A stretch of 21,553 bases of DNA, from the NCBI RefSeq assembly GCF_006345805.1, contig NW_021823679.1:1-21553 (forward strand), read 5' to 3'. The DNA is from Octopus sinensis. Lineage: Eukaryota. The notes below the pieces were generated by a model. It did not search any database. It saw only the letters and a program-made list of their open reading frames with translations, and was not told where the DNA came from. Every line of letters begins with the position of its first letter. Position 1 is the first letter of the stretch. Of this stretch, positions 5,838 through 21,553 are shown in pieces. The translations under genes and the position numbers were made by a program.

Positions 5838-5930
5838 AAGGGCGGTGAGCTGGCAGAATCGTTAGCACCCGGGCAAAATGCTTCGCGACATTCCGTCTTC
5901 CTTTACGTTCCGGGTTCAAATTCTGCCGGG
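5838..5930 (+). mobile_element. family B SINE head (A and B box) fused directly to minisatellite array 1
   Basis: GGCGGTGAGCTGGCAGAATCGTTAGCACCCGGGCAAAATGCTT..TACGTTCCGGGTTCAAATTCTGCCG, then the array begins. Confidence 0.8.
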
Positions 5931-6249
5931 ATCTCATTTGGCGAACCGCTACGTCATTTTATCGAATTCGTTTGGCGTACCGCTAAGTTATTCTATCGAT
6001 CGTTTTTGGCGAACGGCTAAATTATTCTATCACTATCATTTGGCGAACCGCTAAGTCATTATATCGCTATCGTTTGGCGAACCGCTAAGTCATTATATCG
6101 ATATCGTTTGGCGAACCGCTAAGTTATTCTATCGATCTCGTTTGGTGAACCGCTAAGTTATTCTATCGGTTACATTTGGTGAATCGCTAAATTATTCTAT
6201 CAATCTCATTTGGTGAACCGCTAAGTTATTCTACTGGTTTCATTTGGCG
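5931..6249 (+). repeat. 34-bp minisatellite array 1 (~9.4 units)
   Basis: TTTGG recurs at 5937, 5971, 6005, 6039, 6073, 6107, 6141, 6175, 6209, 6243 (strict 34-bp period); consensus TTATTCTATCGATCTCATTTGGCGAACCGCTAAG. Confidence 0.95.
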
Positions 6250-6533
6250 GGACTGTGCACAAGCCATTAGTCAGACAAAAAAGGAGGCAGAAGAAAGCAA
6301 AAAACTCGAATTTGGCCGCAAAATAACCTATGGGCATAAGGGGTCGGTTTATCGATTCTTTTAATGGCTTTCTGGGGTGACTGGGGAAATGAAAAGATCT
6401 TCACGACAACCCTCAGACAGTTTTGAAAGCCCATAGAAAATGAGAGCCTTTTACGTGAAAAACTGTGGATTTGTATAAAGGATACACATACACACAGATA
6501 CACAGACATTTTGCCGTTTATATATATAGAGAT
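6250..6533 (-). mobile_element. possible non-autonomous Helitron-like 5' terminal fragment
   Basis: Minus strand starts A|TCTCTATATATATAAACGGCAAAATGTCTGTGT.., resembling Helitron 5' TC termini followed by a short microsatellite; no 3' hairpin-CTAG end found. Confidence 0.35.
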
Positions 6534-6586
6534 ATCGAAAAAAATCCCTCATATACCAATATAGCATAAAGCTATATATTTAATGG

Positions 6587-6812
6587 TACTCTTTTACTCT
6601 TTTACTCTTTTACTCGTTTCAGTCATTTCACTGCGGCCATGCTGGAGCACCGCCTTTAGTCGGGCAAATCGACCCCGGGACTTATTCTTTGTAAGCCCAG
6701 TACTTATTCTATCGGTCTCTTTTGCCGAACCGCTAAGTGACGGGGACGTAAACATACCAGCACCGGTTGTCATGCAATGCTAGGGAGACAAACACAGACA
6801 CACAAACACACG

Positions 6813-6878
<66 letters not shown>

Positions 6879-7087
6879 ATATATAGATAGATAGATAGAT
6901 AGATATATATATATATATACATATATACGACAGGCTTCTTTCAGTTTCTGTCTACCAAATCCACTCACAAGGCATTTGTCGGCCCGGGGCTATAGCAGAA
7001 GACACTTGCCCAAGATGCCACGCAGTCGGACTGAACCCGGAACCATGTGGTTGGTAATCAAGCTACTTACCACACAGCCACTCCTGC
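6587..7087 (-). mobile_element. near full-length family A SINE, second copy
   Basis: Collinear with and highly similar to 454-877; longer internal (TA)n/(GATA)n; (TACTCTTT)x3 tail. Confidence 0.9.
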
Positions 7088-7454
7088 TGTATGATTAATA
7101 TAACTTTAATTCTTTAGCGTATATAATGTTATTTTTTAGGCCTGCAGAATGTGTTCCTGGATTCTCGGAACTTCCCAGTTGAGAGACACCAAAACCATTA
7201 TCCTTCTCTTCTCCACTTTTTCCCGACCCCCACCTTGAATACTGTTGTTCACTGTGGTCTCCCCACGCGAAACAAAGTTAGCTATCTACATACATACGTG
7301 TGTGTGTGTGTGTGTTTGTGTTCTCTTTTCTTATTTGGCCAAAGACCAACCAAAAAGAGCTGAAACGTTGTCGCCTGGCAACATCAGAATAGTGATAGAC
7401 TAAATACCTTACGGTAGTTATGTCCCTTTGATTTCTGATTTCCACTTCATTTAT

Positions 7455-7552
7455 TTTTTAACCCGAGGTAGATAAAATAACTAACAGTCAAGTACTGGGG
7501 TCGATATAAGCAGGCGTATCTCTACATACCTTATATGTAACCTTGTGCCTGC
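7455..7552 (+). mobile_element. degenerate 3' half of family B SINE
   Basis: ccgaggtagataaaataa..cagtcaagtactggggtcgatataa..ccttgtgcct. Confidence 0.55.
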
Positions 7553-8989
7553 TTTACACTAGACATCCTTATTATAATAATTGTTCCTGTCATTCTTTTT
7601 ATTGTTGTTTTTGTGTCGTGCTTATACATCTGTCGCAATATAAACACCAAAAATAATAAGAACAAAACAAACAGTACCTCTATCTAAAAGGCTGGTGGAT
7701 ATTCTAATATTCTACGTTGTCCTGCATTAGAAGCTGTCTCTTTTATCCTTTTCTCTATAATTGAATCCAGTCGATGTTTAAGTATCTTAGCATATACCAT
7801 GTGTACTCTCGAACTAAAGTGTAGAAAAACAGTTCCAATGCTAGGAAAACAAAATATATGATTGCGTTACGTAGTAGGAAAAAAAAAAAAAAACTCAAGC
7901 TTACACACATACAAGAAAAGACAATACAAAACAAAATTACACGTATCAGTTTAAGCTGTCCGCTTTCTATTTGCTCTCCAATTAATGCCACTGTCCATGC
8001 TATCCTTCTCGTTGAACCTCTTGGTCAGCTGTAGTCATCGTGATGAATCGAAAGTAAATGAGTTAAATCTCGTTCAAATAAACTGCCATTCCGGAACAGC
8101 AGTAAAAAAGATTAAAATAAAAATAAGCTGTAGATTTTTTAGAGCCCACACAGGCCTCTTAAAATATCTTACACTTGGGAATAACGAAATCCAAGAGATA
8201 ACTCGTAAAACTGGTAAAGATAACGAATTTAGTTGTGTGCTTCGAATTGTCGGTTATATTATATGAGTGAAAAATTGCAAATGGCGGCTTGGGGCTCAAA
8301 ACGAGGTCACCGAATCTTAAAATGATTGTAAATTTTAATACTCAGGAAATCTTAATTGTTAGTGCTAAATTTTAAACTATGTCACAGAATTTACGAAAAT
8401 ATCGACGGTGAGTTAGTTGCTACTAAATGACCCAGCTGTCTAAAATGATGGATTTTAAATACTTTCAGCGAATGGTAGTATCGTAATAAGTAATAACGGT
8501 AAATTTTGAATGGCATCCATCATTTGTTAAGAGTGTGGCTGCGAATATTAAAATGGTTCCAACTAGTCTTGGACGTCTTTACTTTGGTTTTACTAATGAC
8601 AACAATTCTAGGCTAGTCGAACTGTGTTCAATAAATATGCCTATAGCGAAATCATTGGAATAATTCCAAATTTATAAGATTGGCGTTTTTTTCTCATTTC
8701 TTCTTTTTTTTATGTTTTACGATTCTTAGACTACCAAGATTTAAGAATCATAAAATAGGTTGGCAAAGACCATAAACTACGTTGATTGGTTGAATCAGTG
8801 GACAATTCTTACTTCTTCACTTTCTGACACAAGGAAATTATCTTTACGGTTCCACTTTTATTTTCACCTTTAGTACAGTTAAAGAAAACACAGGAAGAAA
8901 TTAACAGATAATATTGACAGGAATCTTTTACAGACTCAGAAATTTGGCGAATTGACCGTAGTAATAGTAGTAGTGGTAGCAGCTACAAA

Positions 8990-10167: not shown

Positions 10168-10478
10168 TCGATCTCATTTGGCGAACCGATAAGTAATTAT
10201 ATCGATCTCAATTGGCGAACCGCAAATGCATTTTATCGATCTTATTTGGCGAAACGGTATCGATCTCTTTTGGCGAACCACTAAGTTATTGTATCCATCT
10301 CATTTGGCAAACCACTAAGTTATTATCTCGATCTTATTTGGCGAACCGCCTAAGTTATTTTATTGATCTCGTTTGGCGAGCCGCTAAATTATTCCATCGT
10401 ATCATTTGACGAAACTTTAAAGTTATTCTATCGATCTTATTTGGCGAACCGCGAAGTTACTATATCGATCCCATTTGT
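10168..10478 (+). repeat. 34-bp minisatellite array 2 (~9 units, one with a 10-bp deletion)
   Basis: Unit starts at 10177, 10211, 10245, 10269, 10303, 10337, 10372, 10405, 10440, 10474; same consensus as array 1. Confidence 0.93.
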
Positions 10479-10894: not shown

Positions 10895-11304
10895 TCCTAA
10901 TTTTGGGCTCAAGTAGTTTTGAGGGGTGGGGTGGGGGGGCTAGTCGATTGCATCGGCCCCAGTATTCAACTGGTACTTATTTCATCGACCTCTTATTTGG
11001 CGAACCGCTAGTTATTATATCGATCCCATTTGGCGAACCGCTAATTTATTCTATCGATCCCCTTTGGCGAACCGCCGCGTTATTTTATCGATCTCATTTC
11101 GCGAACCGCTAATTTATTCTATCGATCCTATTTGCCGAACCGCTAGATTATTATTATACCGATCTCCTTTGGCGAACCGCTAAGTTATTTTATCGATCTT
11201 ATTTGGCGAACCGCTAGGTGGCATTTGAACTCAGAACGTAAAACCGGAAGAAACGACGCTAAACATTTTGTCCGTCGTGCTAACGATTCTGCCAGGTCGC
11301 CGTC
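10895..11304 (-). mobile_element. family B SINE interrupted by minisatellite array 3
   Basis: Tail/body 10895-10992 (tagtcgattgcatcggccccagt..ctggtacttatttcatcgacc) and head 11217-11304 (ggtggcatttgaactcagaacgtaa..gctaacgattctgccag.tcgccg) flank the array. Confidence 0.8.
10977..11216 (+). repeat. 34-bp minisatellite array 3 (~7 units)
   Basis: Unit starts at 10996, 11029, 11063, 11097, 11131, 11168, 11202. Confidence 0.93.
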
Positions 11305-18582: not shown

Positions 18583-19135
18583 AATGCGCTGATGCAGTAC
18601 CAGGCAGTGGCTCTCATGGCTTCTGATCTTAACTGATTGGAAGTGTTTCATGTACATTGTTTTGTCTTGGTATAAAAGATGGGCTACAGCAAATTCTGCT
18701 CAATACCACAGATTTGCTTGTCAGTTGTTTGACCTTAAACAGTTGAGCATGTCCCTTAGTGGCTGACGATATGTGCATCTCTGATCACGAGCAGAAGTAG
18801 TGGGGGAGCATCATAGCCATGTGTTGAGAGGATTCTTTGGGGTTTGAATAATTCACCTCTGGAAACATGGGTGGTTCTTTCAACATCCTTAAACAACCCT
18901 TATTCAGGGACCTTTTGAGCGGGATGGGCTACTCGAACTGAAGTAAATTCTAACTAGGCCCCACCTGCAAGGTCATGTGCTGTTTATCTTGATATGAGAT
19001 CACCATGTCTCGCACATATGGTTGTGATGCATGTGCCTGGTGTACCCTTATCAGACGGGTAGTCATGATGGGTATATTGGGCTTCGTATATTTTACCCCA
19101 GTGTCACTTTGATGGCATGCACTGCTCTCTCACTC
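18583..19135 (+). mobile_element. (TAA)n-flanked non-coding retroposon, copy 1 (probably Dong/R4-type 3' UTR or dependent element)
   Basis: Closely similar to 19237-19710; both end ..GCACTGCTCTCTCACTC then (AAT)n; no credible ORF. Confidence 0.75.
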
Positions 19136-19236: not shown

Positions 19237-19710
19237 GTCTTGATATAAAAGATGGGCTACAGCAAATATTCTGCCTCAATACAACAGATTTGTTGTCAGT
19301 TGTTGACCTTAACCAGTTGAGCATGTCCCTTAGTGGCTGACAATACGTGCATCTCTGATCACGAGCAGAAGTAGTGGGGGAGCATCATAGCCATGTGTTG
19401 AGAGACATTTTGGGGTTTGAATAATTCACCTCTGGAAACATGGGTGTTTCGTTCAACGTCCTTAAACAACCCTTATTCAGGGACCTTTTGAGCAGGATGG
19501 GCTACTCGACCTGAAGAAAATTCTAACTGGGCCCCACCTGCAAGTCATGTGCTGTTTATCTTGATATGAGATCACCATGTCGCGCACATATTGTTGTGAT
19601 GCATGTGCCTGGTGTACCCTTATCAGACGGGTAGTCATGATGGGTATGCTGGGCTTCGTATATTTTACCCCACCAGTGTCACTTTGATGGCATGCACTGC
19701 TCTCTCACTC
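19237..19710 (+). mobile_element. (TAA)n-flanked retroposon, copy 2 (5' truncated by ~80 bp)
   Basis: Starts at the position matching 18664 of copy 1; same 3' end; flanked by (TAA)n on both sides. Confidence 0.75.
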
Positions 19711-19778: not shown

Positions 19779-19952
19779 TCGGAAAATACATTAGGAATGA
19801 GAACCCAGGCTCGAAATTTCCCCAAGACACCTGAAGAAGGCTGGAGGGTATATCAGCCGAAACGTTGTTTTAACAAAGAAAGAAGATGAGGACAAATTTC
19901 CGTCGAATGTAAATAATGTACATAATTCCTCATCTCTTAAATATAGAACTGT
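19779..19952 (+). mobile_element. Penelope-like pseudo-LTR fragment
   Basis: Contains the PLE-type motif CCTGAAGAAGGC..GCCGAAACGTTG; follows a (CAA)n tract; boundaries approximate. Confidence 0.55.
19827..19870 (+). ncRNA. degenerate minimal hammerhead ribozyme motif, family H2
   Basis: ACAC | CTGAAGA (19831-37) | A-GGCTG..CAGCC stem II | GAAA (19859-62) | CG | TT | GTTT (3/4 pairing with ACAC); stem III reduced to the palindrome AACGTT. Confidence 0.55.
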
Positions 19953-20321
19953 GTTTTGGATAAAGTTTTCAGAAATAACCCAATAAGTTTACCGTTAATT
20001 TCGTGAAATAATCACGGGTCCCAGCAAGTATTTATAAATCACAGTATCAAAAGGTCGGCGGTGTGACATGGAAGATGTGTATTTTCCAACGTTCTCCTCT
20101 CCAGAGTTTTATATAAATCAACAGATCAGTACGGAATGTAATATTAATTAATAAATAAATGAGAAAACGGCCAGAATTCATGCAATCACATTTATTAGCT
20201 TATAGCTCATTCTACTCTAAATAACCGTGCAACTGGAGTTGAATGTTAATAGCAGAAACAACTGTTAGCTAATGCAAGTGATTACGTAACTATGATCTTT
20301 GTTACTCATTTACTAAGTAGT

Positions 20322-20351
20322 ATATATACATGTGTATATATATATATATAG

Positions 20352-20408
<57 letters not shown>

Positions 20409-20418
20409 ATATATTATA
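20322..20418. repeat. (TA)n microsatellite
   Basis: Directly visible. Confidence 0.95.
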
Positions 20419-20452
20419 ATACTTATTTACAAGCAGCAGAATATAACAAAAG

Positions 20453-20490
20453 CTGTTACTCAGAGTTTCACGTTCCCGTTCGTCGGACAG
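20453..20490 (-). ncRNA. minimal hammerhead ribozyme motif, family H3 (U4C core variant)
   Basis: Minus strand CTGT | CCGACGA | ACG-GGAA-CGT | GAAA | CTCTGAG | TA | ACAG. Confidence 0.65.
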
Positions 20491-20527
20491 GTTCTATTTT
20501 AACAAAACTGTTTTGTTAAAATAGAAC

Positions 20528-20564
20528 CTGTCCGACGAACGGGAACGTGAAACTCGAGTAACAG
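20528..20564 (+). ncRNA. minimal hammerhead ribozyme motif, family H3 (U4C core variant)
   Basis: CTGT (20528-31) | CCGACGA | stem II ACG/CGT with GGAA tetraloop | GAAA (20549-52) | palindromic CTCGAG | TA | ACAG (pairs with CTGT); predicted cleavage after 20560. Confidence 0.65.
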
Positions 20565-21553
20565 CTTTTGTTATATTTCTGCTGCTTTTAAATGAAGCAT
20601 ATTACTCTACCTCTGGTATTTGAGTTCACTGTTTTCCACCTTGTTTCACATTCATGTGCTTACTCCGGTATGTATATATATATTATATATATATATTATA
20701 TATTATTTATATATACGCATACACACACACACACACACACACACTCAGACATACTCTCTCACACACACATACATACATGTGGTGTGTGTAAGTGTAGTAG
20801 TATGTGATCTGTTGATTGACTAAAAAGGGCTCACACTGAAAAAAAAAAACTATTTCCAACCCCACTACAGACAACGCACACACAGCATTACAAACACATC
20901 CTTTACACACAACTTCACAAACTCGGACTACCAAAAGCGCTAGACACGTGTATTGGCCCCAAATTTTAACAAACATTTATTACATCTGAACTGTGATATT
21001 GTTCTTATAATTTGACATTTTATCATGTATACATTTGTTATTTTCATTATTGCGTAACGTTAATTCTGCCAAGGAAGGTGTGTAGTAGTTTGTGATATGT
21101 AGCTAAAATAGTTGAATGATCGATCTTGCAAGAAGCTTTATGGAGTAATCTCCCTTTAATAAGTCTCTCAAAACATCTACGTCATGAGAAGTAATTCTTA
21201 ATTATTCAAGAAGCTTCGCGTTTCTCTTGGAAGTTTCTAGAATGTCTAGCGTTCCATTAACAAAAACAGTTTGCTTGCTCTGCTCTTCGCTTCTTAGTCG
21301 ACTAGACTCTGAGCCATTCACGTCGTTGCTATGCCTGCCTATTTCTCTATGCCATATGACTGAAAGCCACCACTTAGCTGTTATTTCTACATTTCCTATC
21401 GCTGAACGTTCTTGCATAGATTACTTCATTCAACTAGATTCTACATTTTGATTATATTTCATCAATAACCAATGAATAAAATATATTTTTATGTAGTAAA
21501 TATATAGTTCTTAAATTCCTTCTTCTTTGTAAGAATTCTTCTAATAATATACA

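What the first reader, a model, noticed from the sequence alone, without database searches (positions are those of the whole stretch)
20419..20670. Fold-back element made of two back-to-back hammerhead ribozymes, inserted in (TA)n
Seen: a 157-bp palindrome (78-bp arms, two indels, essentially no loop) in which each arm carries, reading outward from the centre, a complete 37-38-nt type I hammerhead layout: stem I CTGT/ACAG, core CCGACGA, stem II ACG-GGAA-CGT, GAAA, self-complementary stem III, GUA site. The right arm continues ~80 bp and both sides end in TA-rich repeats. Known: minimal hammerheads with palindromic stem III occur in pseudo-LTRs of Penelope-like elements (PLEs), are thought to cleave as dimers, and PLE insertions often leave inverted partial ends. 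Inference: this is a non-coding PLE/retrozyme-like fold-back unit. A transcript from either strand would contain one ribozyme plus its full antisense upstream, so a long dsRNA hairpin would compete with ribozyme folding (self-silenced ribozyme, and a Dicer/ADAR substrate). The core has C instead of the canonical U4 in both arms.
Basis: partly seen in the sequence, partly recalled or inferred. Interest (0 to 1): 0.75.

Follow-up and report, generated by a model that had tools for sequence, protein, structure and literature searches.

The report
Two-armed stub of Hydra Penelope retrotransposon
This small DNA palindrome is one of hundreds of two-armed stubs of a known kind of jumping gene (a Hydra-type Penelope element), not a separate ribozyme element, and the stubs nearly always pair one short-ended arm with one long-ended arm, which likely means both cut DNA strands copied the same stretch of the element's RNA from two start points.

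Summary
The palindrome and both hammerhead layouts are real; it is slightly larger than stated (20422-20597, plus a 71-bp one-sided tail to 20668). It is the ribozyme-bearing end (pLTR) of a 3.4-kb Hydra-clade Penelope-like retrotransposon, traced to its RT-endonuclease gene. The genome holds about 700 such tight head-to-head junctions with the C4 core. In samples anchored away from the junction, 60 of 62 two-armed insertions pair one tail-less with one tailed arm. Inner ends pile up 1-17 nt upstream of stem I (67 of 162 arms) and are rare just beyond. Junctions vary, and the commonest occurs in both orientations, so each stub forms afresh instead of spreading as a unit. Best reading: both nicked strands of a (TA)n target prime reverse transcription at two fixed RNA sites and run to the RNA's likely 5' end, through an uncut ribozyme. 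U4C is family-wide (1,099 exact copies against 85 with U4); a sister subfamily has the canonical core and makes the same stubs. Inverted end plus tail is published; the one-of-each rule and the inner-end wall were not found in eight searches. This scan reported the same pattern in other genomes. Cleavage, transcription and silencing are untested.

The parts
20321..20421 (.). (TA)n target, left flank
   Evidence: Tandem repeat 20321-20418; sequence
20422..20490 (-). Left arm: inverted pLTR end from stem I (20490) to the short, tail-less 3' end (20422)
   Evidence: the same end is seen in 32 of 62 subfamily A arms
20453..20490 (-). Hammerhead layout of the left arm (38 nt; U4C core; family-type stem III with unpaired centre)
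20491..20527 (.). Junction: two copies of the family's 17-18-nt leader upstream of stem I, each turned round relative to its arm, with a 1-nt centre at 20509
   Evidence: Native leader seen in long copies; centre present in a contig of run X16
20528..20564 (+). Hammerhead layout of the right arm (37 nt; U4C core; predicted cut after 20560; 1-nt deletion makes stem III a perfect palindrome)
20528..20597 (+). Right arm up to the short end (first inferred RT start site)
20598..20668 (+). 71-bp tail, which in full-length copies runs on into the coding region; its end is the second inferred RT start site
   Evidence: (L105)
20669..20715 (.). (TA)n target, right flank

Best explanation
This is a minimal two-armed insertion of a Hydra-clade Penelope-like retrotransposon in a (TA)n repeat, likely made when both cut strands of the target primed reverse transcription at two fixed sites on the element's RNA and the two copies were joined head to head near the RNA's likely 5' end. 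Shown: the arms are the hammerhead-bearing end of a 3.4-kb RT-endonuclease element; outer ends fall at two fixed places (+70 and +141/142 from stem I); two-armed insertions carry one of each; inner ends pile up at -1 to -17; the ribozyme's cut site is intact in most arms. Inferred: (1) the two outer ends are RT start sites, by analogy with the purified anole enzyme, which nicks and extends both strands and starts at two sites that bound the tail; (2) one strand uses each site; (3) both copies come from one RNA or one particle; (4) the inner wall is the RNA's start; (5) the ends are joined through short A/T microhomologies, with an extra switch in this copy. The hairpin is then a by-product, and its ribozymes are passengers, probably weak (U4C) and masked in any read-through transcript.
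For: Parent: walking upstream from the arm reaches the coding region; L088 links RT and endonuclease to the C4-type end, and L105, L095, L212 show pLTR-ORF-pLTR with a 3,405-bp unit. Hydra markers RWK, DKT, CxCX5C, no cysteines between the GIY and YIG positions, terminal CxxC and CxH. The hammerhead has the same stem I, stem III and cut site as Hydra-2_aMil in the published table, with a different but still paired stem II. One-of-each rule: 27 of 28 (subfamily A) and 33 of 34 (subfamily B) two-armed insertions are short+tail, the other two having a damaged end; about 46% would be expected if ends were drawn independently (my arithmetic from the end counts). In the ribozyme-anchored A sample 29 of 34 are short+tail, 1 short+short, 4 damaged. 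Inner wall: 32 of 62 and 35 of 100 arms end at -17..-1, against 2 of 62 and 7 of 100 in the 76 nt from -99 to -24. Short arms pair with short arms: no short-anchored pair had a partner reaching -55 (0 of 32, 24, 8 and 22 in four overlapping samples), while long pairs are long on both sides (L207, L209-L211). Some pairs barely overlap or do not overlap at all (L243, L244, L252, L305), which one strand folding back on itself cannot give. The commonest junction has its long leader on the short arm in 5 and on the tailed arm in 3 of 8 copies. Arms of one insertion agree at 173 of 227 polymorphic site comparisons (0.76) against 0.50 when shuffled, 0 of 2,000 shuffles reaching it. Enzyme precedent: PMC11167929.
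Against: All mechanism is read from finished insertions; no RNA ends or biochemistry. Only 28 of 53 and 34 of 77 insertions had a detectable partner arm (partners under about 25 nt or over 450 nt away are missed). The anole enzyme showed no difference in start site between top and bottom strand, so the one-of-each rule is not predicted by that assay. Arm agreement could also come from gene conversion between arms or from two RNAs of the same source copy. The wall lies in a T/A-rich stretch with 4-nt palindromes, which could itself attract joins. Mixed insertions with a short inverted arm and a long forward arm start at -36 and -108, outside the wall (L100, L101). A few arms do start at the cut site (4 of 100 in B at +34/35, two of them one ambiguous insertion; 4 of 62 in A at +32 to +35). 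Samples are the first exact matches along contig C1, not random draws. Pfam and PDB sequence searches found nothing for the ORFs, so the clade rests on motifs, not on a tree.
Confidence: 0.72

Rival explanations
1. One reading: a non-coding fold-back retrozyme-like unit that spreads as a whole and whose hairpin silences its own ribozyme.
For: Hundreds of similar palindromes; the hairpin is very stable (-143.6 kcal/mol); one junction recurs 8 times among the first 49 listed places.
Against: 46 sampled fold-backs gave 46 different junction strings (strings include neighbouring point changes); the recurring junction occurs in both orientations relative to the tail; no head-to-tail arrays of the unit were seen in the sampled loci; solo, short, long and full-length copies form one continuum with the same outer ends.
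Confidence: 0.05
2. Self-priming: one strand folds back and copies itself (proposed for Penelope on an antisense template in PMC3846280), giving the head-to-head palindrome.
For: Explains arm agreement and near-loopless centres such as this copy's; published proposal.
Against: Both outer ends are fixed and each also occurs in solo copies next to (TA)n; non-overlapping pairs exist; asymmetric junctions face either way.
Confidence: 0.12
3. Two-strand priming is right, but the inner wall marks an RT stall or a microhomology hot spot just past the ribozyme fold, not the RNA's start.
For: The zone -17..-1 is T/A-rich with TTAA or CTAG palindromes, and junctions often use them; about a third of B arms pass through it (34 of 100 beyond -100).
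Against: Solo arms joined to (TA)n also end there; density falls 20- to 70-fold beyond the wall; an initiator-like TCAGTT (consensus recalled) lies at about -19 in subfamily B; arms that pass through are explained by the second pLTR copy at the RNA's 3' end.
Confidence: 0.25
4. Assembly or chimeric-read artefact.
For: The window is a small unplaced 21.5-kb contig; the centre is an unusually perfect palindrome.
Against: The arms differ at four places; about 700 similar junctions on chromosome-size contigs; family junctions appear in contigs of three public runs and this centre in one.
Confidence: 0.02

Closest known systems
Hydra clade of Penelope-like elements (Craig et al. 2021, PMC8557442; read: abstract, passages, section 11, supplement file 1 part 2 of 59)
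   Same: RWK, DKT, CxCX5C linker, no internal CCHH, terminal CxxC and CxH, (TA)n target, type I hammerhead with ACTC-N-GAGT stem III (same stems I and III as Hydra-2_aMil); Penelope-13_HM is listed with an inverted 5'-truncated copy carrying a hammerhead on each strand.
   Different: Longer unit (3.4 kb against 'generally <3 kb'); tail 71 bp against 30-40 bp; every Hydra hammerhead in that table has U4, this subfamily has C4; the one octopus family listed (Hydra-1_Obim) has a different hammerhead. Its protein was not compared.
Inverted pLTR plus one-sided tail of endonuclease-positive PLEs (PMC3846280, parts 1-4 of 5 read; PMC8557442 Fig. 2 legend)
   Same: Head-to-head inverted 5'-truncated copy, palindrome at the junction, tail on one end only.
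   Different: There shown on full-length elements and explained by self-priming; here both arms are 70-160 nt, make up a large share of all copies, follow a one-of-each rule and stop at a narrow zone.
Anole Poseidon enzyme in vitro (Frangieh et al. 2024, PMC11167929; parts 1-2 of 4 read)
   Same: Nicks and extends both strands at AT-rich DNA; two internal RT start sites bound the tail; uncut RNA is the main template; predicted dimer.
   Different: Different clade; no strand bias in start site was seen; the paper's text does not use this to explain inverted insertions (its one 'inverted' is a blocking group).
Minimal PLE hammerheads (Cervera and de la Pena 2014, PMC4209133; parts 1-2 of 4 read) and the U4C viroid variant (PMC3088659, passages)
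   Same: Short stem I, palindromic stem III, low activity even as dimers; pairs on opposite strands 100-700 bp apart already noted in Schistosoma; U4C known to lower activity yet allow viroid infectivity.
   Different: Pairs here are mostly 5-35 bp apart; U4C was fixed in a whole retrotransposon subfamily.
Animal non-LTR retrozymes (bioRxiv 10.64898/2026.07.22.740005; part 1 of 5 read)
   Same: Non-coding, pLTR-derived, type I hammerhead.
   Different: Retrozymes are head-to-tail tandem units; these stubs are head-to-head and made anew at each insertion.

Membership tests
Hydra-clade PLE (parent element) | Single ORF, RT followed by C-terminal GIY-YIG-type endonuclease | tested here: met
   YRDD then GVVY...YTG in L104 and L105. 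By motif only: Pfam 0 hits; 2,088 homologues among 7,991 scored, unnamed; the top one carries PF01541 (name GIY-YIG recalled).
Hydra-clade PLE (parent element) | RWK and DKT motifs | tested here: met
   Both in L105; DKT also in L062 of the window's subfamily
Hydra-clade PLE (parent element) | CxCX5C linker; CCHH cysteines absent between GIY and YIG; CxxC and CxH near the C-terminus | tested here: met
   All in L104; CxxC and CxH also in L064; L105 has lost one linker cysteine
Hydra-clade PLE (parent element) | Insertion into (TA)n | tested here: met
   TA-like 3' flank in 47 of 62 and 82 of 100 arms
Hydra-clade PLE (parent element) | Canonical hammerhead in the pLTR | tested here: inconclusive
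   Met in sister subfamily B (2,656 exact copies); the window's subfamily has C at core position 4
Hydra-clade PLE (parent element) | Placement in the Hydra branch of an RT tree | not tested
   No named reference proteins were fetched
Type I hammerhead ribozyme | Three stems around the core, ends in stem I, NUH site | tested here: met
   stems vary with pairing kept across the published Hydra table. Within this family no compensatory change was seen; copies decay mainly at CpG.
Type I hammerhead ribozyme | CUGANGA core | tested here: not met
   C4 in 31 of 35 arms sampled without regard to the core; 1,099 against 85 exact copies
Type I hammerhead ribozyme | Self-cleavage as monomer or dimer | not testable with these tools
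   Monomer fold about -0.2 kcal/mol; stem III self-duplex -10.7 (right) and -7.9 (left). No clear pile-up of insertion ends at the cut site.
Non-LTR retrozyme | Head-to-tail tandem units, each with a hammerhead | tested here: not met
   Arms are head to head; single insertion between TA repeats
Non-LTR retrozyme | Spreads as a fixed unit through circular RNA | tested here: not met
   Junctions vary and flip; circular RNA itself could not be tested

The most novel reading that the evidence does not exclude
These stubs are a genome-wide record of the Penelope insertion reaction: one particle primes both target strands, one at each of two fixed RNA sites, on a single uncut RNA that starts 13-20 nt upstream of the hammerhead; and a subfamily reached thousands of copies with a U4C ribozyme, so cleavage is dispensable for spread.
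Probability: 0.45. Interest if true: 0.6.

Novelty: new variant of a known kind. Interest (0 to 1): 0.38.

Why it matters
How Penelope-like elements make their inverted ends, and what their hammerheads are for, are open questions (PMC8557442 and PMC11167929 say so). The counts here favour two-strand priming over the published self-priming idea and predict an RNA start and a one-site-per-strand rule that an existing in vitro system can test. Two sister subfamilies, one with a canonical and one with a U4C core, give a natural comparison for ribozyme need. The locus itself is an ordinary, decayed copy.

Tried and rejected
Rfam: no hammerhead match. Pfam and PDB sequence search: no hits for the ORFs. 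I first filed the parent as Neptune from recalled motifs; the missing internal cysteines and section 11 of PMC8557442 moved it to Hydra. The first copy sample used a query that contained the turned-round leader and so favoured fold-backs; counts were redone from motif-anchored samples. One search failed to remove duplicate loci and is superseded. Alignments report the outer ends as +75/76 and +145 because they run on into the TA flank; the true ends are +70 and +141/142. A 3' splice site as cause of the wall was considered: subfamily B has an AG at about -7, but arms extend past it unspliced and the window's subfamily lacks it. A peak of insertion starts at the cut site was looked for and is inconclusive. 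Expression: no RNA holder listed (14 holders are guessed RNA only), and all runs were contigs, which cannot show RNA ends, editing or small RNAs. Three of four runs laid nothing on the centre at 97% likeness, which proves nothing. Lunse et al. (PMC5785218) was not held; its core variants may include U4C, and I saw only a review's passages. Only part 2 of 59 of the PMC8557442 supplement was read; supplements of the other papers were not opened and those of the bioRxiv preprint are closed.

Full report
Observation. The window ends in a repeat-rich stretch. A script placed the palindrome's centre at 20509 and found the hammerhead layout at two core positions only, one per strand. The arms are longer than stated (20422-20508 and 20510-20597) and differ by three 1-nt indels and one substitution. 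Rfam gave no hammerhead match. Folding puts the whole element in one long hairpin on either strand, with stem I of the ribozyme essentially never formed; the isolated monomers are marginal and stem III self-pairs between two molecules at -10.7 and -7.9 kcal/mol.

Copies. The window is a whole small contig of a 2.72-Gb animal genome (octopus-like by size and repeats, my inference). The right arm had 1,842 first-look candidates, 40 scored; the 39 other copies were 89-95% identical. Exact motif counts: 1,099 for the window-type 28-nt core with C4, 85 for the same with U4 (C4 sits in a CpG, so decay can give these), 2,656 for a sister subfamily B with the canonical core; all reversed controls 0. 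A third type with C4, U7 and a G at 11.1 turned up. Head-to-head junctions of C4 arms with up to 30 nt between them number 709 against 31 for the control.

Parent. Copies that extend upstream share an AT-rich 3' region that leads into a coding region. Searching with that region gave near-complete elements: L088 links the ORF to the C4-type end, and L105, L095 and L212 of subfamily B show pLTR, tail, ORF, pLTR with 3,405 bp between ribozymes. The protein has RWK, DKT, YRDD, a CxCX5C linker, a GIY-YIG-like segment without internal cysteines and terminal CxxC and CxH, which is the published definition of the Hydra clade. The published Hydra ribozyme table lists Hydra-2_aMil with the same stem I, stem III and cut site. 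Pfam and PDB gave nothing; 2,088 unnamed homologues exist. No tree was built.

Anatomy of insertions. Positions are counted from the first base of stem I; the predicted cut falls before +34. To avoid selecting for the junction or the ribozyme I anchored on a 22-nt motif downstream of the cut site and analysed the first 62 of 2,871 A matches and the first 100 of 2,414 B matches along contig C1. Outer ends fall in two classes, short (+70) and tailed (+141/142): 32 and 27 of 62 in A, 59 and 40 of 100 in B. Of 53 A insertions 28 had an adjacent inverted partner, 27 of them short+tail; of 77 B insertions 34 had one, 33 short+tail. Inner ends: 32 of 62 and 35 of 100 lie at -17..-1, 2 and 7 in the 76 nt from -99 to -24, 7 and 34 beyond -100, 21 and 22 between 0 and +49; 2 B arms lie at -20. 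Both arms carry a whole ribozyme, as in the window, in 11 of 53 and 19 of 77 insertions. A ribozyme-anchored sample gave the same picture with one short+short pair among 34.

Unit or by-product. Among 46 distinct A fold-backs no two junction strings were the same (part of this sample came from the biased first search). The genome-wide list does show a recurring junction, 8 of the first 49 places, but fetching those showed the long leader on the short arm in 5 and on the tailed arm in 3, so it is re-made and not inherited. The two arms of one insertion agree at polymorphic sites more than arms of different insertions (173 of 227 against a shuffled mean of 0.50). Short arms pair with short arms and long with long. 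Some pairs share little or no sequence. The window's own centre is a variant with both leaders turned round; a contig of run X16 holds it unchanged, and family junctions occur in contigs of runs X15, X16 and X19.

Mechanism. The purified anole Poseidon protein nicks and extends both strands of AT-rich DNA, starts copying at two internal RNA sites that bound the tail, and uses uncut RNA. Read onto these counts, one target strand is primed at +70 and the other at +141. An RNA that begins in the upstream pLTR offers both sites within about 160 nt of its start, so both copies run off quickly and are joined, giving the stub; the same sites at the RNA's far end give long two-armed copies. The wall at -13..-20 then marks the RNA start; an initiator-like hexamer (consensus recalled) sits at about -19 in B, and Drosophila Penelope starts inside its pLTR. 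These steps are inferred. The published alternative is self-priming on an antisense template; fixed ends on both sides, non-overlapping pairs and flip-able junctions argue against it. A stall or microhomology hot spot remains a fair rival for the wall.

Ribozyme. Most arms span the cut site, so their template was uncut, in the C4 and in the canonical subfamily alike. Starts near the cut site are few (4 of 62, 4 of 100) and confounded by a local palindrome. U4C is reported to lower activity but to be viable in a viroid; no Hydra ribozyme in the published table has it. I could not read the paper on PLE ribozyme variants.

What is known. Inverted 5'-truncated copies with a one-sided tail are standard PLE anatomy, and ribozyme pairs on opposite strands were noted in 2014. 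Eight literature searches showed no paper stating the one-of-each rule or the inner-end wall; the library lacks most subscription papers. A sequence look-up in this scan's notes found nothing; a word look-up made after my analysis showed unreviewed reports of the same two-strand reading in other genomes, which are leads and not support.

Verdict. Real feature, ordinary origin: a decayed stub of a new Hydra-clade family. The family-level regularities are a modest, testable clue to Penelope insertion. Interest 0.38.

Noticed in passing
window 19825-19870 (+): A second, unrelated minimal hammerhead with a canonical core and 5-bp stem II; 2,662 exact copies of a 33-nt motif in the genome. In 30 loci it follows an (AAT/AAC)n run, and several copies carry a B-box-like head upstream (recalled consensus), suggesting a SINE-like repeat with a ribozyme. 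A similar head lies at window 18330. One opposite-strand pair within 200 bp among the first 100 matches, so it rarely folds back.
   Followed up: partly
window 5930-6249, 10168-10477, 10995-11216: Three separate arrays of the same 34-bp minisatellite.
   Followed up: no
window about 18660-19130 and 19237-19710: Two neighbouring direct copies of a roughly 470-bp repeat, each followed by (AAT)n.
   Followed up: no
L376-L395; L105: Three subfamilies differ at core position 4, position 7, loop II and position 11.1 (U, G or A against A10.1); the one with the most intact ORFs has the canonical core. Whether U4 was kept or regained was not tested.
   Followed up: partly
L105:2764-4863: In subfamily B the reading frame is open from just after the ribozyme core through the tail into the RT, with no ATG for 67 codons; the window's subfamily has stops in this stretch.
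   Followed up: no
L102 (reverse strand, oriented 6496-8380): A second, more distant Hydra-like element lies next to a copy of this family.
   Followed up: no
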